DNA from: Candidatus Kerfeldbacteria bacterium
GTDB taxonomy: Bacteria; Patescibacteriota; Patescibacteriia; UBA9570; XYC2-FULL-38-9
DNA length: 64,000 nucleotides
Direction: 5' to 3'
Assembly (NCBI GenBank): GCA_016182555.1
Contig: JACPGJ010000008.1
Span: 299,147-363,146, forward strand
Shown here in pieces: positions 1,429 through 32,007 of this stretch. A model generated the notes under the pieces. That model was not told where the DNA came from and made no database searches. It saw nothing but the letters and a program-made list of their open reading frames with translations. Positions within the stretch are counted from its first letter, which is position 1. Every line of letters starts with the position of its first letter. The position numbers were made by a program, and so were the translations under genes.

Positions 1429-3237
1429 TTAACGCTTGAGAATCGCAAGAAATGCTTCTTGTGGAATATCCACTTTTCCAATAGACTTCATTTTCTTTTT
1501 CCCTTTTTTCTGTTTTTCCAACAATTTTCGTTTCCGAGTCACGTCACCACCATACAATTTCGCGGTCACATCTTTGCGCATGGGAGCAATACGTTCACCG
1601 GCAATCACTTTACTCCCAATCGTCGCTTGAATTTTGACTTCAAACATTTGCCGTGGCAACACATCTTTTAACGTTTTCACTACTTTGCGACCGACCACCT
1701 GCGCTTCATCACGGTACACCATTGAAGCCAGTGGCCCCACTGATTCTTCGGCCACGACAATATCCATCCGCACAATATCTGCGGGATTGTATCCAAAAAA
1801 TTCATAATTCATCGACGCATAGCCCGAACTCACATTTTTCAATTTGTCATAAAAATCGACCACAATGCCAGCAAGTGGGATATGGTAATGTAAAATGGCT
1901 CTCCGTTCATCCAGGTACTCCACTTCTTGCGCGGTAGGCTTTCCTCGTTTTTCAATAACCAGTTGCATAATCGGACCAATATATTCTGTTGGCGTGACAA
2001 TATCCACAGACATGATTGGTTCTTCCATGTGGTCAATCTGCGTGACGTCTGGTAAATCAAGCGGTGAAGAGATGAGTTCTTCATGACCATCTGTTGTAAA
2101 AATTTTATATGCTACCGATGGAGTGGTGACAATAAGATCAATATCAAATTCACGGCGAATACGTTCGCTAATAATGTCCAGATGCAACATACCTAAAAAA
2201 CCACAACGAAAACCAAATCCCAGCGCCACAGAATTTTCTGTTTCATACACCAATGCAGCGTCATTGAGTTTTAACTTACCCATCGCATCGCGTAACAGCG
2301 GATATTTCGAACTATCTTTTGCATAAATGCCAGCATAGACCATGGGTTTCACAATTTTGTACCCAGGAAGTGCCTCTTGTGCACGCCGATTTTTTAGCGT
2401 CACGGTATCACCAACACGAGCATCTTCTACACCTTTAAAGCCAGTGACAATATACCCAATCTCACCAGCACTCACATGATTCTGTTTCTCGAGTTTGGGT
2501 CGAAAATATCCCACTTCTAAGGCTTCTGAACTCGTATCACGACCCATTAAATAAATGTGGTCACCGCGTTTCACCGAACCATCGATCATGCGGACATACG
2601 TAATCACCCCACGGTAATCATCAAAAACGGAATCAAAAATAAGTGCGCGCACCGGTGCTTGAATATCGCCGCTCGGTGCGGGAACGCGCTCCACAATGGC
2701 TTCCAGAATCGCTTGCACATTTTGCCCGGTTTTTGCCGAAACCGGAATAATCTCTTCTGGCGCACACCCAAGCAAAGAACACACTTCTTGAGTTACACGA
2801 GGAAGATCAGCAGCGGGAAGATCAATTTTATTGATCACCGGAATAATTGTCAGGTTTTGTTCAATAGCCAGGTAGAGATTGGCCAGTGTTTGCGCTTGAA
2901 TGCCCTGTGTCGCATCGACGACTAATAATGCCCCTTCGCACGCTTGAAGTGATCGAGAGACTTCATAGGTAAAATCCACGTGGCCTGGCGTATCAATAAG
3001 GTTTAAGGTATACGGCTGTCCGGCGCGTGTTGTGTATTGCATGCGTACTGGTTGCAGCTTGATGGTAATCCCCCGCTCGCGTTCCAAATCCATCTGGTCA
3101 AGCATTTGCTCCTGCATTTCTCGTTTTTCCACGGTGTGCGTCAATTCCAATAACCGATCGGCTAATGTGGACTTCCCATGATCAATATGGGCCAAAATGG
3201 CAAAATTTTTTATATTACTTTTTTTGTACTCTATCAT
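1429..3237 (-). CDS. lepA: Elongation factor 4 (LepA), translational GTPase
   Basis: N-term NFAILAHIDHGKSTLADRL G1 motif and GHVDFTYEVSRSL; 602 aa full-length LepA architecture including C-terminal LepA domain. Confidence 0.97.
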   Translation of the reverse strand: MIEYKKSNIKNFAILAHIDHGKSTLADRLLELTHTVEKREMQEQMLDQMDLERERGITIKLQPVRMQYTTRAGQPYTLNLIDTPGHVDFTYEVSRSLQACEGALLVVDATQGIQAQTLANLYLAIEQNLTIIPVINKIDLPAADLPRVTQEVCSLLGCAPEEIIPVSAKTGQNVQAILEAIVERVPAPSGDIQAPVRALIFDSVFDDYRGVITYVRMIDGSVKRGDHIYLMGRDTSSEALEVGYFRPKLEKQNHVSAGEIGYIVTGFKGVEDARVGDTVTLKNRRAQEALPGYKIVKPMVYAGIYAKDSSKYPLLRDAMGKLKLNDAALVYETENSVALGFGFRCGFLGMLHLDIISERIRREFDIDLIVTTPSVAYKIFTTDGHEELISSPLDLPDVTQIDHMEEPIMSVDIVTPTEYIGPIMQLVIEKRGKPTAQEVEYLDERRAILHYHIPLAGIVVDFYDKLKNVSSGYASMNYEFFGYNPADIVRMDIVVAEESVGPLASMVYRDEAQVVGRKVVKTLKDVLPRQMFEVKIQATIGSKVIAGERIAPMRKDVTAKLYGGDVTRKRKLLEKQKKGKKKMKSIGKVDIPQEAFLAILKR

Positions 3238-4018
3238 AAATATTCTGTATACAGCGGCTCATGTCCTCAACACGCTTCTTGTGCTTAAGGTGTGGCTTAA
3301 GAAGTGTAAATAATACAATTAATGATCTAACCTTGCTCACACGAATTCTCCACAAATCGTTATGATACTTCCACCCAGTTTTGGTATTATAGATTTGATT
3401 TTTTAATCCAATTTGTTGTGGAGGGGGACAAGAAATTCCATTTATTATAAACCATCTGTAGAACCAAAAGATAACATGTTTATCGTATGTGTCAATCTTC
3501 AAGCGCGCACGACCATCATAGATGCCAATATTTGCCTCTGCATCTATATAACCTGCCGCAAAAGCTGCAGAGCAGTTAGGATCACTCGTAATCCAACGAG
3601 CTACGCGATAGGTATTCTTCGGTAATAGAAAAGCGAACGTCTTATTCATATAGCAATTTACATGGTAAGATTTTGTACGTTTATTCATTGAAATAGTCAC
3701 TTGACCATATGGTTCAAATAATTGACGCATCAGATTGATTTGATCTTGTCTTGTCGTATGACATCGAACAATAATAACTTCTGAAGAATTCACCGTTTGA
3801 TAGACGTTTAAATCTCCTAGTCGAAAGCCAATTAAATAGGCTTTCTCATCACTGTCACCGAAAAAATTTTTTTTCTTATACGTACTTTGAATAATGGATC
3901 TGGAAAGCGATTGAAGACCATACTCTCGCATACGATTTGCTACCGTAGAAAAACTACATTGATAAAGATTGCCAATAGCATATTTAGATTTTTTCTCTCG
4001 GTAATGTAAACGAATCAA
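3215..4018 (-). CDS. Free-standing LAGLIDADG-type homing endonuclease-like protein with N-terminal HTH
   Basis: Two LAGLIDADG-like motifs (KAYLIGFRLGDLNV and AAFAAGYIDAEANIGIY), N-terminal HTH-like AIGNLYQCSFSTVANRMREYGL. Local GC ~33% versus markedly higher in flanking lepA. Overlaps lepA start by 23 nt. Confidence 0.6.
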   Translation of the reverse strand: MIRLHYREKKSKYAIGNLYQCSFSTVANRMREYGLQSLSRSIIQSTYKKKNFFGDSDEKAYLIGFRLGDLNVYQTVNSSEVIIVRCHTTRQDQINLMRQLFEPYGQVTISMNKRTKSYHVNCYMNKTFAFLLPKNTYRVARWITSDPNCSAAFAAGYIDAEANIGIYDGRARLKIDTYDKHVIFWFYRWFIINGISCPPPQQIGLKNQIYNTKTGWKYHNDLWRIRVSKVRSLIVLFTLLKPHLKHKKRVEDMSRCIQNIYDRVQKK

Positions 4019-4058
4019 TTCATCTTTTGGTATCTTTATTGTAAGATTGAAAAAACTC

Positions 4059-5648
4059 TTACCAATATCTTTTCAGGAGAGACCACATTCCAACAATCTT
4101 TGTTTTTACCGCTTCCGCTTCATCAAAATGAAATTGTGTTGCGATAAATAAATACATCATTCCACCGCCAATCAAACTCCCCATGGTTTGCAGAAAAATA
4201 CCCACGAAGGTGTGCATATCCACCGCAGGGGCAATCACATATTTCAACCCTTGAATAATGCAGCCCATGCCTAAAGAAGAAATAATAATTTTCCACGTCG
4301 ATGAAATAATATGATTATCTTCTAAATCGCCATGCCGTGCGCGCAAGGTCACCAGCAAGGTGAGCATTTCAATAATTTCTGCAATGGAAAACGCCAACGC
4401 TAAACCAATAATGCCCCACAGGTGTGCAAACCACCAACCAAGCACCAAGTTCACCACCACCGAACCCAGACTAATGACGACGGGCGTCATGGTATCTTGT
4501 CGCGCAAAAAATGCTCGTGCTAACAACGGGATAAGGCTTTGCGCAAACATGGATAACGCAAACATGCCAAGGGTTTGAGCAGTCAACTTCGTGGCTGTCC
4601 AATCAAATACACCAGCGCCGTACACTAAACGCACAATTTGCGCACGCAATAATAATGTGGCAATAGAAATAGGAATAATAAAAAAGAGAATGCGCCGGAA
4701 ATTTTCCGAAAAAATTTGCTTAAAGCGATGAATATTGTTTTCCGCAAATGCTTCAGAAAACAGTGGAAAAACAGCCAGAGACAACGACACACCAAAAATA
4801 TTGATGGGAAAATGTTGTAAATTATCGGCATATTGCCACACGGATTTCGCACCATCACTGAGTGTAGAAGCGATAATAAAAATAATAAACAAATTCACCT
4901 GAGTGAGCCCAAGCGCAAATGAACGCGAAGGCATGAGCATGAGAATACGCCGCACTCCCGGGTGACGGAGCGAGAGATGCGGACGAAAACGAAAACCGGT
5001 TTTCATTGCGGCCGGAAGCTGCACCAAAAAATGTAATGCCGCACCAAACACCACGCCCCACGGCAACCCGGTGACACCAATGATTGGATACAACACCAAA
5101 ATACCGATGATAATCCCAACATTATACATAATGGGCGCCATCGCATAGACAAAAAAACGTTTATTCGCGTGTAACACACCAGCCAACACATTACTCATGC
5201 CAAAAAAAATCATCGAAAGCAACATGATACGGGTAAAGTGAGTAATCAATACACGCTCTTCACCAGAATCACCATAACCGAGAATATGCACAATGCTCGG
5301 CGCAAAGATAAAACAAATTGCCGCCAATACCACCAACGAAAAAGTGAGAATATTGAGTACATCATTAGCAATATCCATCGCTGCTCGTTCTCCATCTTTT
5401 TTTCGGTATTCAATAAAAATAGGAACAAAAGAAGCAGACAACGCGCCAAGAACAAGAATATTATAAATAAAATCTGGAATACGGAACGCACTAAAATAAC
5501 TATCAGAGATATGCCCAATGCCAAAATGGCTAGAGATCAAACGGTCACGGAAGAGGCCGAGAAAACGGCTGGTAACCGAAGCCGCGCCCAGAATGAGCGC
5601 GCTACCGATAACGGTTTGCTGGAGTCGTTCAATCAATTGTTTTCCCAT
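4059..5648 (-). CDS. murJ: Lipid II flippase MurJ (MviN family)
   Basis: 529 aa, ~14 TM; N-term LGLFRDRLISSHFGIGHISDSYFSAFRIPDFIYNILVLGALSASFVPIF matches MurJ signature. Confidence 0.9.
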   Translation of the reverse strand: MGKQLIERLQQTVIGSALILGAASVTSRFLGLFRDRLISSHFGIGHISDSYFSAFRIPDFIYNILVLGALSASFVPIFIEYRKKDGERAAMDIANDVLNILTFSLVVLAAICFIFAPSIVHILGYGDSGEERVLITHFTRIMLLSMIFFGMSNVLAGVLHANKRFFVYAMAPIMYNVGIIIGILVLYPIIGVTGLPWGVVFGAALHFLVQLPAAMKTGFRFRPHLSLRHPGVRRILMLMPSRSFALGLTQVNLFIIFIIASTLSDGAKSVWQYADNLQHFPINIFGVSLSLAVFPLFSEAFAENNIHRFKQIFSENFRRILFFIIPISIATLLLRAQIVRLVYGAGVFDWTATKLTAQTLGMFALSMFAQSLIPLLARAFFARQDTMTPVVISLGSVVVNLVLGWWFAHLWGIIGLALAFSIAEIIEMLTLLVTLRARHGDLEDNHIISSTWKIIISSLGMGCIIQGLKYVIAPAVDMHTFVGIFLQTMGSLIGGGMMYLFIATQFHFDEAEAVKTKIVGMWSLLKRYW

Positions 5649-28653: not shown

Positions 28654-31600
28654 TTATTCTACCGTCACCGACTTGGCTAAATTGCGAGGTTGATCAACAT
28701 CATGGCCACGCAATACCGCCACATGATAGGCAAATAACTGCAATGGAATAATCGACAACATCGGTGTCAACATTTCTAATGTTTTGGGAATATATATCAC
28801 ATCATCTGCTAGTGCCTGCATTTCCGTATTCCCTTCTGTCGTAATCACTAAGACGCGTCCGTGGCGTGCTTTAAATTCTTGAATATTCGAAATATTTTTC
28901 TGATATACAGAATCTTCTGGTGCAATAAAAATAGAATAAAATCGATCATCAATTAACGCCAATGCACCATGTTTGGGTTCGCCGGCAGGATACCCTTCTG
29001 CATGCACATACGAAATTTCTTTCAACTTATGCGCCCCTTCCACTGCCACAGGGTAATTGTATTTTCGTCCAAGAAATAGTGCGTGATCATACGACGAATA
29101 TTTTTTCGCCATTTCTGCAATGTTGTCTGATTGTTGAAAAATGGTTTGCATTTTTTCTGGAATACCCATCAATTCTTTCGCAATGCGTTGACCGGTCACA
29201 AGTGACATATTTCGTTGACGCCCAAGCGCAAGTGTAAGTAATGCAAACATATTTAGCATACCAGTAAACACCTTTGTAGATGCAACTGCTTTTTCTGGAC
29301 CAGAATGAATATACATACCAGCATCAACTTCACGCGCAATAGTGGAACCAATCACATTCACAAGCCCAAAAGTGAATACCCCTCGTCGTTTTGCTTCTCG
29401 AAGTGAAGCAATCGTATCTGCTGTTTCACCGGATTGCGACACCAGCACCACTGCCGTTTTCTCATCCAAAACAGGTTTACGATAACGAAATTCTGAACCA
29501 AATTCAACCTCAACAGGAATTTCTGCATATTCTTCTAACATATATTCTCCTACTTTTGAAGCATACGAAGCCGTGCCGCAGGCAACAATAATAATCCGTT
29601 CAATATTCTTCCATCTTTTGATATTCTCATTAAATCCACCCAAATGCGCAATGCCATCTTCTTCAATCAAACGCCCACGCAATCCATTCAAGATAACCTC
29701 TGGCTGTTCAAGCATCTCTTTGAGCATAAAGTGTTCGTGGCCATTTTTTTCTGCTTGTGCCGCTGTCCATTCCACTCGACTCACTGGGTGTTCAATATGT
29801 TGCTGATCAAGCGTAGTGATTGTATATCCATCGCGCGTTACGGTGACCATTTCTGCTTCTTCCAAATACACTACCTCACGCGTGTGGGGTAAAATGGCAG
29901 AGAGATCTGAGGCAACAATGTATTCACCCACGTTCACAATACCAAGAATAAGAGGGCTGCCCAGGCGAGCGGCGACAATTTTATTTGGTTCACGTGAAGA
30001 AAACACTGCTAAACCATATGTACCTACCACCTCTTTGAGTGCACGACTCACGGCTTGCTCCAGCGAACATTTTTTGTAATACGCTTCTATAAGATGCGCT
30101 AGTACCTCGGTGTCTGTTGCGGTTTTAAATGTATGTTTCTCTTGAATGAGTCGCTGCTTGAGTTTGGAAAAATTTTCAATGATGCCATTGTGAATAATAA
30201 AAATTTCATCGCCGCAATCGGAATGCGGATGCGCGTTTGTGTCATTCGGTTCACCGTGAGTTGCCCACCGGGAATTGTGCGAAACTAAACCATTGGCAAT
30301 AAAATTTTCTGTTCCACTCACTTCTAAATCATAAACGTACGGAAATGTACTTCTCACTGTTTGAACTTCGGTAACTTTTTGAAATACAAGCTCCCCAGTA
30401 AATAACTGTTGTAATTGCTGAATGTAGGGGTGTGCACTCTGTTGAACAGACAGTAATTGAAAAAACTGTTCTATCGTACCTCGAGATGGGCTGCCCTTTC
30501 CATGCAATTGTCTATATGCTGCCCCACGAATACCAATTTTTTTTAATTGAGTGGCGATCTCTGTTTTATCCCACGGAAGCATAGCGTACGAGTTCGTCAC
30601 GTTCATAGCCGATTTTTGTTCTAACACTCGTTGTAATTTTTTTTGCTTCTCCGGTGCGGTGAATCCAATCTCTTTATGAAAACGTGTAATAGAATCCGCA
30701 CCACTCATGCTTACTATATACGTTGCATGCGGTCGTTTCTGCTGAATATTCTTTTTCTGAATACAGACTGAACTCATCATACCGAAACGTAATAACCACT
30801 GTTGAATTCTTCCAACAAAATCTCCATCAATCATTGCAAGAGAAACTTGACCAGCTCGAACACGAATCGTTCCTTCCGCATCAAAAATGCCTCGTAAAAA
30901 CTTGCGCAATTCTCGATCTGGTAATTGCCCAATTTCATCATAAAATGCACGTCGTCTCTCAAGAATATTTGTTTTGAGCCATGCCACCACTTCTGTACTA
31001 TTCACCTCTAATAAAAATGCAGCTACTCCTTTGAGCGGCACTATTCTTCCCGTAATACCAAATACGGTTTTTATCAATTCTCTATACTGCTCGAGAACAG
31101 CTTTTCGTGTATCTTTAAAACGCACACACCGCTCATGCGCATGGCCATCACCAATAAAATATCCTAAAATTTGCATCAATTCAGAGGATGATCGTCTTGG
31201 TAACTGCACAAAATTTCCATGAATACTATTCACTGGAGTCATGCCTTCCAGCGGAAAGGGCAAACTCAAGGTTTTTAAAAAGCGGCGCGTGGAATATTCT
31301 TGTGCATGTCTTTCTTGTCGTAAAAAATGATAAATGAAGGAGCTGGATATACCAGAAACATTTGCCAACCCACGTACATTTATCTCTTGCTGTGCCATTG
31401 TATTACGAACAACCTCTATTGTTTTTGATGTCAGTTGCCAATATCGCTGTGGTTCTTGGCATATAAAAGATATTTTTTGCCCGCGCAGAGATATTTTTTT
31501 TGGTGCACACAGAATATCCCCGGGTTGAATATCACGGGCATACTTTTCTTCTATATGACCATCACGAACAATAAGCATGCGATGATTCTCTGTAGAAGTA

Positions 31601-32007
31601 AATCTGCTGACAGAAGTACGAATTTGAAAAAGCTGCTCTGGAGCCGGATGCTTAAATAGGCGTGCCTTTTTTTTAATAAATTGATTTGTTGTTGTATCCA
31701 ATGAGAGGACATCTGCTTTCTCTGGCATATCTGCAATTTTCATCACCCGCCCGTTTGCTAATTGTATTAACGTATCTGGAACAAGGCAATGCGCAACGCC
31801 CACCGTTCCTTGCACCAAGTGCGTGTCCAACAACTCTTTTAAATTTCCAAGCTTTCCGGCCTTTTTATAGAGGTGCACCTTGCTGTTCTGTGTATCCATA
31901 ATAGCCAAACCCGCTGAATCGTAACCTCTGTATTCCATCCGCTTCAAGCCTTCAAGCAAAATAGGTTTTGCCTCTTGTTTTCCAATATAACCAATGATTC
32001 CACACAT
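28654..32007 (-). CDS. glmS: Glutamine--fructose-6-phosphate aminotransferase (GlmS) interrupted by a 505-aa intein with LAGLIDADG endonuclease domain
   Basis: N-term MCGIIGY (Cys1 nucleophile) ... GVAH | CLVPDTL...LVSHN | SRWATHG. Extein halves reconstitute the GlmS glutaminase motif; SIS domains and C-terminal ...VTVE present. Intein ~30274..31788 with LGYFIGDGHA and LRGIFDAEGT motifs. Confidence 0.93.
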   Translation of the reverse strand: MCGIIGYIGKQEAKPILLEGLKRMEYRGYDSAGLAIMDTQNSKVHLYKKAGKLGNLKELLDTHLVQGTVGVAHCLVPDTLIQLANGRVMKIADMPEKADVLSLDTTTNQFIKKKARLFKHPAPEQLFQIRTSVSRFTSTENHRMLIVRDGHIEEKYARDIQPGDILCAPKKISLRGQKISFICQEPQRYWQLTSKTIEVVRNTMAQQEINVRGLANVSGISSSFIYHFLRQERHAQEYSTRRFLKTLSLPFPLEGMTPVNSIHGNFVQLPRRSSSELMQILGYFIGDGHAHERCVRFKDTRKAVLEQYRELIKTVFGITGRIVPLKGVAAFLLEVNSTEVVAWLKTNILERRRAFYDEIGQLPDRELRKFLRGIFDAEGTIRVRAGQVSLAMIDGDFVGRIQQWLLRFGMMSSVCIQKKNIQQKRPHATYIVSMSGADSITRFHKEIGFTAPEKQKKLQRVLEQKSAMNVTNSYAMLPWDKTEIATQLKKIGIRGAAYRQLHGKGSPSRGTIEQFFQLLSVQQSAHPYIQQLQQLFTGELVFQKVTEVQTVRSTFPYVYDLEVSGTENFIANGLVSHNSRWATHGEPNDTNAHPHSDCGDEIFIIHNGIIENFSKLKQRLIQEKHTFKTATDTEVLAHLIEAYYKKCSLEQAVSRALKEVVGTYGLAVFSSREPNKIVAARLGSPLILGIVNVGEYIVASDLSAILPHTREVVYLEEAEMVTVTRDGYTITTLDQQHIEHPVSRVEWTAAQAEKNGHEHFMLKEMLEQPEVILNGLRGRLIEEDGIAHLGGFNENIKRWKNIERIIIVACGTASYASKVGEYMLEEYAEIPVEVEFGSEFRYRKPVLDEKTAVVLVSQSGETADTIASLREAKRRGVFTFGLVNVIGSTIAREVDAGMYIHSGPEKAVASTKVFTGMLNMFALLTLALGRQRNMSLVTGQRIAKELMGIPEKMQTIFQQSDNIAEMAKKYSSYDHALFLGRKYNYPVAVEGAHKLKEISYVHAEGYPAGEPKHGALALIDDRFYSIFIAPEDSVYQKNISNIQEFKARHGRVLVITTEGNTEMQALADDVIYIPKTLEMLTPMLSIIPLQLFAYHVAVLRGHDVDQPRNLAKSVTVE
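30274..31788 (-). mobile_element. GlmS intein (Cys1 ... His-Asn, +1 Ser) with double-LAGLIDADG homing endonuclease domain
   Basis: Residues 74-578 of the ORF; codons verified manually at both junctions (tgc at 31786-31788; aat/tcc at 30271-30276). Confidence 0.85.

What the first reader, a model, noticed from the sequence alone, without database searches (positions are those of the whole stretch)
3215..4018. Free-standing HTH + double-LAGLIDADG ORF in an AT-rich patch overlapping the lepA start
- A 267-aa ORF has two LAGLIDADG-like helices (YLIGFRLGDLNV; AGYIDAEANIG) and an N-terminal HTH.
- It is not embedded in any host protein or obvious intron.
- Local GC is ~33%, far below the flanks, and its stop lies 23 nt inside lepA.
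- Free-standing LAGLIDADG genes in bacteria usually mark a mobile insertion. This one may home into the lepA-murJ junction, or it may be the remnant of a former intein or intron.
Basis: partly seen in the sequence, partly recalled or inferred. Interest (0 to 1): 0.55.

Follow-up and report, generated by a model that had tools for sequence, protein, structure and literature searches.

The report
Free-standing homing endonuclease gene at lepA
A selfish DNA-cutting enzyme gene has been inserted at the very start of the essential translation gene lepA in this ultra-small (CPR) bacterium, and wherever this gene family sits, the otherwise near-invariant first motif of LepA is altered, as if the host gene had been made resistant to the cutter.

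Summary
A 267-aa ORF (3215..4018, minus strand) lies between murJ and lepA, overlaps lepA by 23 nt and is AT-rich. It folds as an N-terminal helix-turn-helix plus a single-chain double-LAGLIDADG nuclease (AlphaFold pLDDT 94; best PDB matches PI-PfuI, I-DmoI, I-AniI, I-SceI). Both catalytic acidic residues are kept in about 260 of 260 relatives.

It belongs to a large, unnamed family found mainly in CPR bacteria. Almost every member examined sits at the same place, with its stop overlapping the lepA start.

The window's copy is an insertion:
- Its two nearest LepA neighbours and a third close relative (LepA 76-80% identical) share the GT4-DUF4012-murJ-lepA synteny but have only 32-43 nt between murJ and lepA.
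- The window's LepA is nested in a clade of about 75 LepA sequences that lack its variant motif.

All 54 distinct ORF-bearing lepA alleles deviate from the canonical CIIAHIDHGKST motif just downstream. The window reads AILAHID. Twelve of 17 verified ORF-less CPR alleles are canonical.

Best reading: a free-standing LAGLIDADG homing endonuclease that moves by intronless homing, with a linked resistant lepA 5' end. Cleavage, target and immunity are inferred, not shown. The intein or intron remnant idea is not supported. New variant of a known kind; interest about 0.6.

The parts
3215..4018 (-). 267-aa ORF as listed (TTG start): HTH plus single-chain double-LAGLIDADG endonuclease
   Evidence: ORF. 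AlphaFold model pLDDT 94, pTM 0.87. Foldseek top hits are LAGLIDADG homing endonucleases. Family-level Pfam hits to LAGLIDADG_3 and HTH_50.
4019..4058 (-). Left junction: 40 nt between the murJ stop and the TTG. In the ORF frame it encodes '...FNLTIKIPKDE', which is homologous to the family N-terminus but has no canonical start. ATA at 4039..4037 is a candidate start.
   Evidence: Alignment A1 and the in-frame translation. The start may have been clipped at the left junction.
3869..4018 (-). N-terminal helix-turn-helix module (residues 1 to about 50)
   Evidence: Helices H2-7, H12-19 and H23-32 in the model. HTH_50, HTH_23 and HTH_28 hits in family members. A weak profile match to the TyrR HTH, 1g2h, E=0.18.
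3803..3844 (-). LAGLIDADG motif 1 'KAYLIGFRLGDLNV', with catalytic D69
   Evidence: G68 and D69 are invariant in 260 of 260 relatives. D69 sits at the end of helix H56-69.
3524..3565 (-). LAGLIDADG motif 2 'AFAAGYIDAEANIG', with catalytic E161
   Evidence: G156 is invariant and E161 is E or D in 259 of 260 relatives. E161 sits at the end of helix H147-161. It aligns with PI-PfuI 'FIAGLFDAEG'.
3215..3237 (-). 23-nt dual-coding overlap. The ORF tail '..YDRVQKK*' and lepA codons 1-7 'MIEYKKS' share this DNA, and the lepA ATG lies inside ORF codons Y261-D262.
   Evidence: The same arrangement (xAT GAT AGA read as ATG ATA GA.) is seen in L005, L003, L095 and L099.
3173..3207 (-). lepA codons N-F-A-I-L-A-H-I-D-H-G-K: the variant of the G1-adjacent motif (canonical N-F-C-I-I-A-H-I-D-H-G-K). 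Proposed resistant form of the homing site. The variant codons GCC ATT TTG GCC are at 3201..3190.
   Evidence: This is the only such site in the window. Among the window's 120 closest LepA proteins it is the only AILAHID. None of the 54 ORF-bearing alleles is canonical.
1429..3237 (-). lepA (elongation factor 4), the host gene whose 5' end is joined to the element
   Evidence: From about codon 27 onward it matches its Kerfeldbacteria sisters nearly codon for codon.
4059..5648 (-). murJ, the upstream flank. In the closest relatives it lies directly next to lepA.
   Evidence: Pfam MurJ 3e-96. Empty sites in L172, L173 and L174.

Best explanation
The ORF is a free-standing homing endonuclease gene. 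It encodes a single-chain, two-domain LAGLIDADG nuclease with an extra N-terminal helix-turn-helix DNA-binding module. It belongs to a large family whose main branch is integrated site-specifically at the 5' boundary of lepA in CPR bacteria.

Proposed mechanism (intronless homing):
1. In a cell that receives or holds an ORF-less lepA allele, the enzyme recognises a roughly 20-bp stretch of the strongly conserved DNA coding for N-F-C-I-I-A-H-I-D-H-G-K. This stretch begins 13 nt downstream of the ORF stop in this window (4-38 nt across the family).
2. The enzyme cuts that site.
3. The break is repaired by recombination with an ORF-bearing allele.
4. Repair copies the ORF, a short upstream leader, and the first lepA codons, which overlap the ORF's end.

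The ORF-bearing allele would be protected because its copy of the site carries substitutions (A-I-L-A-H-I-D in this window). lepA expression is kept because its start codon is embedded in the ORF's last codons, giving stop/start overlap and probably translational coupling.

In this genome the element was gained horizontally by a Kerfeldbacteria lineage whose relatives lack it. Its canonical start codon is missing, so this copy may be starting to decay.

Shown here: the fold, the catalytic residues, the site specificity, the empty sites, the nesting among ORF-less relatives, the link with variant lepA motifs, one cassette-like transfer, and purifying selection.

Inferred: cleavage activity, the exact target, immunity, and how DNA passes between cells.
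For: **Fold and chemistry**
- AlphaFold model: pLDDT 94, pTM 0.87, with the alpha-beta-beta-alpha-beta-beta-alpha fold twice.
- Foldseek PDB hits: PI-PfuI 5e-9, then E-DreI, I-AniI, I-DmoI and I-SceI.
- LAGLIDADG_3 is hit by 17 of 24 family members.
- D69 is kept in 260 of 260 relatives and E161 (E or D) in 259 of 260.

**Site specificity**
- In 6 independent loci found through encoding contigs, and in nearly all of 80 metagenome loci with enough downstream DNA, the ORF abuts or overlaps the lepA start. This holds for ORFs only 35-64% identical to the window's.
- The outer flanks of these loci differ.

**Insertion in this genome**
- L172, L173 and L174 have LepA 80, 80 and 76% identical to the window's and the same GT4-DUF4012-murJ-lepA synteny. 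They have only 43, 40 and 32 nt between murJ and lepA, and no ORF.
- No ORF homologue above 64% identity exists among 5.8 billion proteins.
- In a LepA tree built without the N-terminus, the window is nested in about 75 sequences that read CII, CIV or CIL. Its nearest neighbours, L173 and L172, are verified empty sites.
- In another clade, filled and empty alleles are sister pairs: L003 with L021, and L005 with L032.

**Linked target variation**
- The canonical motif occurs in 0 of 54 distinct ORF-bearing alleles, against 12 of 17 verified ORF-less CPR alleles (Fisher p = 5e-10, not corrected for phylogeny).
- The differences are confined to an 18-nt stretch.
- Of the window's 120 closest LepA proteins, 113 read CIIAHID. 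Only the window reads AILAHID.

**Cassette transfer**
- L154 and L163 share an 85-93% identical block. It runs from about 70 nt upstream of the ORF to about 150 nt into lepA.
- That block is flanked by unrelated DNA upstream and by 65-75% identity in the rest of lepA. ORF dS is 0.54 against 2.5 for lepA.
- The window's lepA start and first codons are physically part of the ORF. From about codon 27 on, lepA matches the Kerfeldbacteria sisters.

**Composition**
- ORF GC3 is 0.26-0.37 whatever the host flanks are (0.24-0.65).

**Function maintained**
- ORF dN/dS is 0.04-0.13.

**Concept**
- Intronless homing by free-standing endonucleases is established in T4-like phages (PMC2988022, PMC2790892).
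Against: - No biochemical evidence. Cleavage, target and immunity all rest on comparative patterns.
- ORF and LepA identities correlate overall (Pearson 0.77 over 630 pairs). Most history inside clades is therefore vertical, and transfers look rare or old.
- There is no general excess similarity of the lepA 5' 165 nt among ORF-bearing alleles.
- Among about 54 alleles none was visibly degenerate. dN/dS is as low as for LepA itself. This also fits a host-useful protein.
- The loci found through the ORF are biased towards filled sites, and the Fisher test ignores shared ancestry.
- Variant motifs occur without the ORF (L017 AILAHID; L174 CILAHID), so the variant motif does not by itself prove the presence or action of the nuclease.
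- The window's nearest ORF relative is only 64% identical, so no donor is identified.
- The window copy lacks a canonical start codon and may not be expressed at full length.
- The identical-then-divergent pair L099/L100 may be an assembly chimera.
Confidence: 0.68

Rival explanations
1. A domesticated LAGLIDADG/HTH protein. It would be a host DNA-binding or regulatory factor, analogous to WhiA, co-transcribed and translationally coupled with lepA. It would be inherited vertically in CPR lineages and lost repeatedly where it is dispensable.
For: - Strong purifying selection: dN/dS 0.04-0.13, similar to LepA.
- ORF and LepA identities correlate (r = 0.77).
- The stop/start overlap with lepA is conserved over deep divergence.
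- No degenerate copies were seen.
- WhiA appears among the structural matches, at rank 45.
Against: - Absent from the window's nearest relatives and from sister genomes in another clade.
- Both catalytic acidic residues are essentially invariant, unlike in WhiA or maturases.
- GC3 stays low whatever the host composition.
- The cassette-like block shared by hosts with divergent lepA.
- A regulator gives no reason for all 54 linked lepA alleles to carry amino-acid changes in a near-universal GTPase motif.
- WhiA_N is hit by only 1 of 24 members (E 0.017), and the domain order is reversed.
Confidence: 0.14
2. An active site-specific nuclease kept for a benefit to its carrier rather than only for its own spread. 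One option is exclusion or degradation of incoming or competitor DNA that carries the canonical lepA site (marker exclusion, strain competition). Another is an addiction-like pairing of the nuclease with a resistant lepA.
For: - The same evidence for an active nuclease and for a resistant linked allele.
- Long-term purifying selection without visible decay.
- The canonical site is present in nearly all bacteria sampled.
Against: - No defence-system context around the gene, apart from one locus with GmrSD nearby (L009).
- No relative found in viral contigs.
- Nothing here separates this reading from plain homing.
- Entirely inferential.
Confidence: 0.1
3. A remnant of a former intein or group I intron of lepA or a neighbouring gene.
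For: - The best structural match is the endonuclease domain of an intein (PI-PfuI).
- The Pfam family hit is LAGLIDADG_3, which is common in inteins.
- The same genome does carry a LAGLIDADG intein, in glmS.
Against: - No Hint or splicing domain. The N-terminus is an HTH.
- The ORF is upstream of lepA and out of frame with it.
- LepA is uninterrupted.
- No ribozyme match in the flanks.
- The architecture is the same in hundreds of relatives.
Confidence: 0.02

Closest known systems
Free-standing homing endonucleases of T4-like phages (SegA-G, MobE; 'intronless homing')
   Same: - An ORF inserted between or next to conserved genes.
- Present or absent at the same place in relatives.
- The target is thought to lie in the neighbouring conserved gene of the ORF-less genome.
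- The ORF-bearing genome is protected by site polymorphism.
- Flanking markers travel with the ORF (PMC2988022, PMC2790892).
- Here these features correspond to the empty sites, the variant lepA motif and the L154/L163 block.
   Different: - Those enzymes are GIY-YIG or HNH, and they act during mixed phage infections.
- This one is a LAGLIDADG enzyme in the chromosomes of cellular CPR bacteria.
- Its 3' end overlaps the host gene's start, so the host gene's first codons are part of the element.
- Cleavage has not been tested.
Monomeric LAGLIDADG homing endonucleases (I-DmoI, I-AniI, I-SceI; the endonuclease domain of PI-PfuI)
   Same: - The same two-domain fold.
- One catalytic acidic residue at the end of each LAGLIDADG helix.
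   Different: - Those enzymes are encoded inside group I or archaeal introns or inteins. This one is free-standing.
- It carries an added N-terminal HTH, repeated 2-5 times in some relatives.
- Sequence identity to solved structures is only 11-18%.
LAGLIDADG endonucleases in the rRNA insertion sequences of CPR bacteria
   Same: - The same host group and the same enzyme superfamily.
- Insertion at highly conserved sites, with a patchy distribution attributed to homing (PMC11270868).
   Different: - Those lie inside 16S or 23S rRNA genes, often with intron-like RNA, and are removed from the transcript.
- This family lies at the 5' end of a protein-coding gene, with no intron.
WhiA (DUF199)
   Same: A bacterial protein that combines a double LAGLIDADG scaffold with an HTH. 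It is a weak structural match (3hyi, rank 45).
   Different: - In WhiA the HTH is C-terminal and the catalytic acidic residues are lost. It is a conserved regulator, not a presence/absence element.
- Here the HTH is N-terminal and the catalytic residues are invariant.
- WhiA_N is matched by only 1 of 24 members.
Free-standing HEGs of fungal and other mitochondria that fuse to or replace the ends of host genes (recalled from memory, not checked here)
   Same: A free-standing endonuclease ORF joined to the end of a conserved gene, with the adjoining host coding segment replaced along with it.
   Different: Those cases involve organelle genomes, mostly the 3' ends of genes and often GIY-YIG enzymes. 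Here it is the 5' end of a bacterial chromosomal gene.

Membership tests
LAGLIDADG homing endonuclease, single-chain type | Two LAGLIDADG helices packed in a pseudo-dimeric alpha-beta-beta-alpha-beta-beta-alpha fold | tested here: met
   AlphaFold pLDDT 94 with that secondary-structure order, twice. Foldseek hits to PI-PfuI, E-DreI, I-AniI, I-DmoI and I-SceI at E 5e-9 to 1e-6. Pfam LAGLIDADG_3 in 17 of 24 members, although the window protein alone gives no Pfam hit.
LAGLIDADG homing endonuclease, single-chain type | An acidic catalytic residue at the C-terminal end of each LAGLIDADG helix | tested here: met
   D69 in 260 of 260 relatives. E161 is E or D in 259 of 260.
LAGLIDADG homing endonuclease, single-chain type | Site-specific cleavage of a long (about 14-40 bp) DNA target | not testable with these tools
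   Needs an enzyme assay. There is only indirect evidence: variation confined to an 18-nt stretch of lepA in ORF-bearing alleles.
Free-standing homing endonuclease gene (intronless homing) | ORF present or absent at one genomic site among close relatives, with the flanks otherwise collinear | tested here: met
   L172, L173 and L174 are empty beside the filled window. L032 and L021 are empty beside filled L005 and L003.
Free-standing homing endonuclease gene (intronless homing) | The ORF-bearing allele carries a variant of the target site (self-immunity) | tested here: inconclusive
   0 of 54 ORF-bearing alleles are canonical against 12 of 17 ORF-less CPR alleles. However, the target is not known experimentally, and variant alleles also exist without the ORF (L017, L174).
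Free-standing homing endonuclease gene (intronless homing) | Co-transfer (co-conversion) of flanking host sequence with the ORF | tested here: met
   L154/L163 share an 85-93% block covering the ORF plus about 150 nt of lepA in otherwise 65-75% identical lepA genes, with an unrelated upstream flank. The window's lepA start and first codons lie inside the ORF. No general excess similarity was found across all pairs.
Intein | In-frame insertion in a host protein, with Hint splicing blocks flanking the endonuclease | tested here: not met
   The ORF is upstream of lepA and out of frame with it. The N-terminus is an HTH, and no family member hits Intein_splicing. The glmS intein in the same window does hit it.
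Group I or II intron-encoded endonuclease | A ribozyme structure around the ORF, interrupting a host gene | tested here: not met
   No Rfam match at gathering score in the window, and no intron family at E<=10 in 2900..4400. lepA and murJ are uninterrupted.
WhiA | A degenerate (non-catalytic) double LAGLIDADG domain followed by a C-terminal HTH; a conserved housekeeping regulator | tested here: not met
   The catalytic residues are invariant. The HTH is N-terminal. WhiA_N is hit by 1 of 24 members at E 0.017. The gene is absent from the nearest relatives.

The most novel reading that the evidence does not exclude
This family would represent a general, undescribed strategy of free-standing homing endonucleases in ultra-small prokaryotes (CPR bacteria and DPANN archaea).

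- The element homes to the extreme 5' end of an essential translation gene.
- It takes over or overlaps that gene's start codon.
- It targets the DNA that encodes the catalytic signature motif a few codons downstream: the G1/P-loop neighbourhood of LepA, or the HIGH motif of MetRS.
- It thereby drives amino-acid substitutions in residues that are otherwise almost invariant across life.

In the strongest version, the nuclease also acts against canonical alleles of competitors, as a gene drive or an exclusion weapon.
Probability: 0.35. Interest if true: 0.75.

Novelty: new variant of a known kind. Interest (0 to 1): 0.6.

Why it matters
- It would extend intronless homing, known mainly from phages and organelles, to the chromosomes of cellular bacteria with minimal genomes. 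It would also add a protein-coding target to the rRNA and tRNA insertions already known in CPR bacteria.
- The strict link between the element and non-canonical residues beside the LepA P-loop suggests that selfish nucleases can force change in some of the most conserved codons in biology. A parallel pattern appears at the MetRS HIGH motif in DPANN archaea. This bears on the use of such genes as phylogenetic markers and on how motif 'exceptions' are read.
- The presence/absence pattern implies homologous DNA exchange among CPR lineages, for which there is little direct evidence.
- Practically, the family offers hundreds of compact HTH-LAGLIDADG enzymes with predictable natural targets for meganuclease engineering.
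- It also shows that current annotation ('hypothetical protein', truncated by 29 or more residues) misses the family.

Tried and rejected
1. **Single-sequence searches of the window protein.** Pfam gave 0 hits. NCBIfam and PDB gave only chance-level hits. PHROGs gave a weak 'endonuclease' hit on the HTH part only. Family-level and structure-based searches were needed.
2. **LepA scan of genome contigs.** It was useful only for about 17 CPR empty sites and as a control for the canonical motif.
3. **Test for a general co-conversion signal.** I asked whether the lepA 5' 165 nt are more alike among ORF-bearing alleles than expected from the rest of lepA. The result was negative.
4. **Prediction that non-canonical motifs mark filled sites.** This failed for MetRS. 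P0398 and P0458 read HIGT but have no ORF upstream. For lepA, L017 and L174 are variant but empty. Only the reverse implication holds: filled means non-canonical.
5. **Search for ORF remnants in empty lepA junctions** (L017, L025, L019, L012, L058, L172-174). Nothing convincing was found; the best E-values were 0.004-4.
6. **L099/L100.** The ORF is identical while the distal lepA is about 70% identical. The switch from 100% identity could be an assembly chimera, so I did not use it as evidence.
7. **Intron or intein remnant.** Rejected.
8. **Viral origin.** No relative in IMG/VR.
9. **Promoter and terminator scan of 3000..4400.** At background level.
10. **Literature.** No paper links LAGLIDADG with lepA in bacteria or describes free-standing LAGLIDADG genes in CPR.
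Full report
**1. What is in the sequence**

A 267-aa ORF runs from 4018 to 3215 on the minus strand. Upstream on that strand is a MurJ flippase gene (4059..5648; Pfam MurJ 3e-96). Downstream is lepA (3237..1429), whose product is 100% identical to an NCBI 'elongation factor 4' of a Candidatus Kerfeldbacteria MAG.

- The ORF's last 23 nt (3215..3237) are also the first 23 nt of lepA.
- The ORF has GC 0.350 and GC3 0.298. murJ has 0.432/0.432 and lepA 0.443/0.406.
- Rfam finds nothing in the 64-kb window at gathering score and nothing intron-like around the ORF.

One correction concerns the start. The frame stays open upstream of the TTG and encodes '...FNLTIKIPKDEL', which aligns with the family consensus 'MRKKIxIPKxEL'. 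There is no ATG, GTG or TTG in that stretch. The NCBI model (238 aa, starting at M29) truncates the protein further.

**2. What the protein is**

The window protein alone matches no Pfam model. It has 432 relatives in the 5.8-billion-protein collection, all unnamed and mostly from Falkowbacteria or Parcubacteria MAGs. A profile search of 1.84 billion cluster representatives finds 321 at E<=1e-30 and 3982 at E<=1e-3. Many of these carry 2-5 N-terminal repeats of the HTH.

- Scanned one by one, 17 of 24 relatives hit LAGLIDADG_3 (best 2e-8) and 12 of 24 hit HTH_50 (best 2e-6).
- An AlphaFold model built on the alignment is confident (pLDDT 94, pTM 0.87). It shows a three-helix N-terminal module followed by the alpha-beta-beta-alpha-beta-beta-alpha unit twice.
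- Foldseek against the PDB returns LAGLIDADG homing endonucleases: PI-PfuI at 5e-9, then E-DreI, I-AniI, I-DmoI and I-SceI. WhiA appears only at rank 45.
- The acidic residue that ends each LAGLIDADG helix is conserved. D69 is present in 260 of 260 relatives, and E161 is E or D in 259 of 260.

This is the signature of catalytically competent enzymes, not of domesticated scaffolds.

**3. Where the family sits**

Six independent loci were found through encoding contigs, with ORFs 44-66% identical to each other and to the window's. In every one the ORF lies immediately upstream of lepA, overlapping its start by 4-26 nt. The outer flanks differ from locus to locus.

Among 80 metagenome loci (35-64% identity to the window ORF), almost all with enough downstream DNA show the same arrangement. 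The ORF stop ends 4-38 nt before the codons x-x-x-x-H of the LepA G1 region.

In the main clade the lepA ATG lies inside the ORF's conserved C-terminal '[Y/H/N]-[D/E]-R' codons: xAT GAT AGA in one frame reads ATG ATA GA. in the other. The first lepA codons are therefore physically part of the element.

A few distant members sit elsewhere:
- before a MetRS gene (L152, L164);
- between groES and uvrA (L160, L161);
- before other genes (L138, L171).

**4. The window's copy is an insertion**

The 120 closest LepA proteins (63-80% identical) come from Kerfeldbacteria and related CPR lineages. Three of them were looked up: L172, L173 and L174, at 80, 80 and 76% identity.

- All three have the window's synteny (GT4, DUF4012, murJ, lepA).
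- murJ and lepA are only 43, 40 and 32 nt apart, with no ORF.
- No ORF homologue above 64% identity exists in the collection. The ORF is otherwise about as conserved as LepA, so a copy in those relatives would have been seen.

In a neighbour-joining tree of LepA built without its first ~45 residues, the window is nested inside about 75 sequences of that clade. Its nearest neighbours are the verified empty sites L173 and L172. One gain explains this far more simply than many losses.

In a second clade, filled and empty alleles are sister pairs: L003 with L021, and L005 with L032 (LepA about 81%, MurJ 73% for the latter pair). At the junction, L032 has murJ stop, 5 nt, then lepA ATG.

**5. A linked change in lepA**

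The LepA residues just before the P-loop are normally [C/S]-I-I-A-H-I-D-H-G-K-S-T.

- 113 of the window's 120 closest LepA proteins read CIIAHID. Only the window reads AILAHID.
- 79 of 80 ORF-less lepA loci from across bacteria keep the I-[I/V]-A core.
- Among 54 distinct ORF-bearing alleles, none is canonical. They read AILAHID (16), VIIAHVD (6), VIVAHVD (5), CIISHVD (4), CVVAHID (3) and a dozen other forms.
- Among 17 verified ORF-less CPR alleles, 12 are canonical. Fisher p = 5e-10, uncorrected for shared ancestry.
- The differences are confined to 18 nt (codons x1-x4, H, I). This is about the size of a LAGLIDADG target.
- The variant type tends to follow the ORF sub-family.
- Empty sisters of filled alleles are canonical or nearly so: L032 CII and L021 CVI, against L005 and L003 AIL.

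From about codon 27 onward the window's lepA matches its Kerfeldbacteria sisters almost codon for codon. Its first 17 codons (MIEYKKSNIKNFAILAH) resemble the ORF-bearing alleles of other lineages, for example MIEEISKIRNFAILAH in L005.

The implication runs one way only. Variant motifs also occur without the ORF (L017 AILAHID; L174 CILAHID).

**6. Evidence on mobility and selection**

ORF and LepA identities correlate over 630 pairs (Pearson 0.77), so inheritance within clades is largely vertical. There are exceptions.

- L154 and L163 share an 85-93% identical block. It starts about 70 nt upstream of the ORF and ends about 150 nt into lepA. It lies between an unrelated upstream flank and a lepA remainder that is only 65-75% identical. 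ORF dS is 0.54 against a saturated 2.5 for lepA.
- L099 and L100 are identical through the ORF and the first ~400 nt of lepA, then about 70% identical. This could be an assembly chimera, so I do not lean on it.
- The ORF is under strong purifying selection (dN/dS 0.04-0.13; lepA 0.03-0.10).
- ORF GC3 stays at 0.26-0.37 while the flanking genes range from 0.24 to 0.65.
- A test for generally raised similarity of the lepA 5' end among filled alleles was negative.
- No relative occurs in viral contigs.

**7. An independent parallel**

In L152 (Micrarchaeota, a DPANN archaeon) and L164, a family member overlaps the start of the MetRS gene. Its own N-terminus ('VINFERVV...') begins with the codons that start MetRS in ORF-less relatives ('VINFEKFYVTT'). 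MetRS restarts at 'MNKFYVTT', overlapping the ORF stop.

The HIGH signature a few codons downstream reads HIGT or HVGS. Among the 120 closest MetRS proteins, 49 read HIGH and 13 read H[VL]GH.

I predicted that HIGT alleles would be filled. That failed: P0398 and P0458 have no ORF upstream, while the canonical P0396 is empty as expected. P0398's locus, L175, keeps the restart N-terminus. It also has a 52-nt spacer that resembles the 3' end of the L152 ORF (35 of 1000 shuffles score as high). This suggests a deletion scar but does not prove one.

**8. Interpretation**

The best-supported reading is a free-standing LAGLIDADG homing endonuclease gene that persists at the lepA 5' boundary by intronless homing. 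The process is established for the Seg and Mob endonucleases of T4-like phages (PMC2988022, PMC2790892).

The proposed steps are:
- the enzyme cuts the conserved lepA sequence of ORF-less alleles;
- repair copies the ORF together with the adjoining lepA codons;
- the carrier allele is protected by substitutions in the site.

The fold, catalytic residues, site specificity, empty sites, nested position, motif association, one cassette-like transfer and purifying selection are shown. Cleavage, the exact target, immunity and the route of DNA exchange are inferred.

The window's copy lacks the family's start codon, perhaps clipped at the left junction, and may be decaying.

Rival readings:
- The main rival is a domesticated, lepA-coupled DNA-binding protein. 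It fits the selection data. It does not fit the absence from the closest relatives, the invariant catalytic residues, the composition or the lepA motif changes.
- A carrier-beneficial nuclease (exclusion or competition) cannot be separated from plain homing with these data.
- An intein or intron remnant is contradicted.

**9. Comparison and novelty**

The enzyme is a member of the LAGLIDADG superfamily by fold and active-site residues. The element works like a phage free-standing homing endonuclease.

What differs is the combination of:
- a LAGLIDADG enzyme with N-terminal HTH module(s);
- a chromosomal home in CPR bacteria;
- integration at the 5' end of a protein-coding gene, with dual-coding overlap of the host start codon;
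- a consistent footprint in a near-universal GTPase motif.

CPR LAGLIDADG genes described so far lie inside rRNA genes (PMC11270868). A recent survey states that free-standing HEGs are generally limited to intergenic targets (PMC13619312). My searches found no report linking LAGLIDADG genes with lepA.

I rate it a new variant of a known kind, with interest about 0.6.

Noticed in passing
window 28654..32007 (-): The glmS gene (1117 aa) carries an intein with a LAGLIDADG endonuclease domain. Pfam hits: Intein_splicing 4e-22, LAGLIDADG_3 6e-22, flanked by GATase and SIS domains. This is a second, unrelated LAGLIDADG element in the same genome.
   Followed up: partly
L152 3953..4777 and L164 581..1699 (DPANN archaea); L175, L176, L177: Family members are inserted at the 5' end of the MetRS gene. 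The ORF starts with MetRS's own first codons (VINFE/K..), and MetRS restarts at MNKFYVTT over the ORF stop. The HIGH motif reads HIGT or HVGS. HIGT alleles also exist without the ORF (L175, L176). L175 has a possible 52-nt deletion scar.
   Followed up: partly
L163 about 1985..2525; also protein P0384 (759 aa): Some CPR LepA proteins carry an in-frame insertion of about 180 aa. It is a PD-(D/E)XK (PDDEXK_3, 6e-32) domain between 'MQPVRM' and 'LNLIDTPGH' of the GTPase domain.
   Followed up: partly
window 4019..4058 and 3932..4018: The family's canonical start codon is missing in this copy, and the public annotation starts at M29 (238 aa), cutting the HTH. The frame is open back to a TGA inside the last codons of murJ.
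   Followed up: partly
proteins P0123-P0268: Many family members are 320-556 aa long with 2-5 matched stretches. These are tandem N-terminal HTH repeats ahead of the nuclease core, as in P0107 and P0111, which have two.
   Followed up: no
L014 3350..5000; L025 4342..4988; L019 4370..5003; L009 3659..5931: The murJ-lepA junction is variable in other CPR genomes. L014 has a Zn-ribbon-repeat protein plus a NUDIX-like ORF there. L025 (Falkowbacteria UBA11705) has a 650-nt stretch with no clear gene. L019 has a 122-aa ORF. L009 has a GmrSD-like gene plus a 175-aa ORF between murJ and the endonuclease gene.
   Followed up: no
L160 908..2122 / L161 2853..4067; L167 3623..6610; L138; L171: More distant family members sit in other contexts. 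One is a 404-aa copy between groES (divergent) and uvrA (convergent, with 3' ends overlapping). One is a 995-aa ORF that fuses the HTH-LAGLIDADG part to a further long region. Others lie before a BY-kinase-like gene and before a methyltransferase-like gene.
   Followed up: no
L099 vs L100 (metagenome contigs Ga0210042_1002529, Ga0210023_1001419): The two contigs are 100% identical for 5.1 kb, including the ORF and the first ~400 nt of lepA. They then drop to about 70% identity inside lepA. This is either a recombination breakpoint or an assembly chimera.
   Followed up: partly
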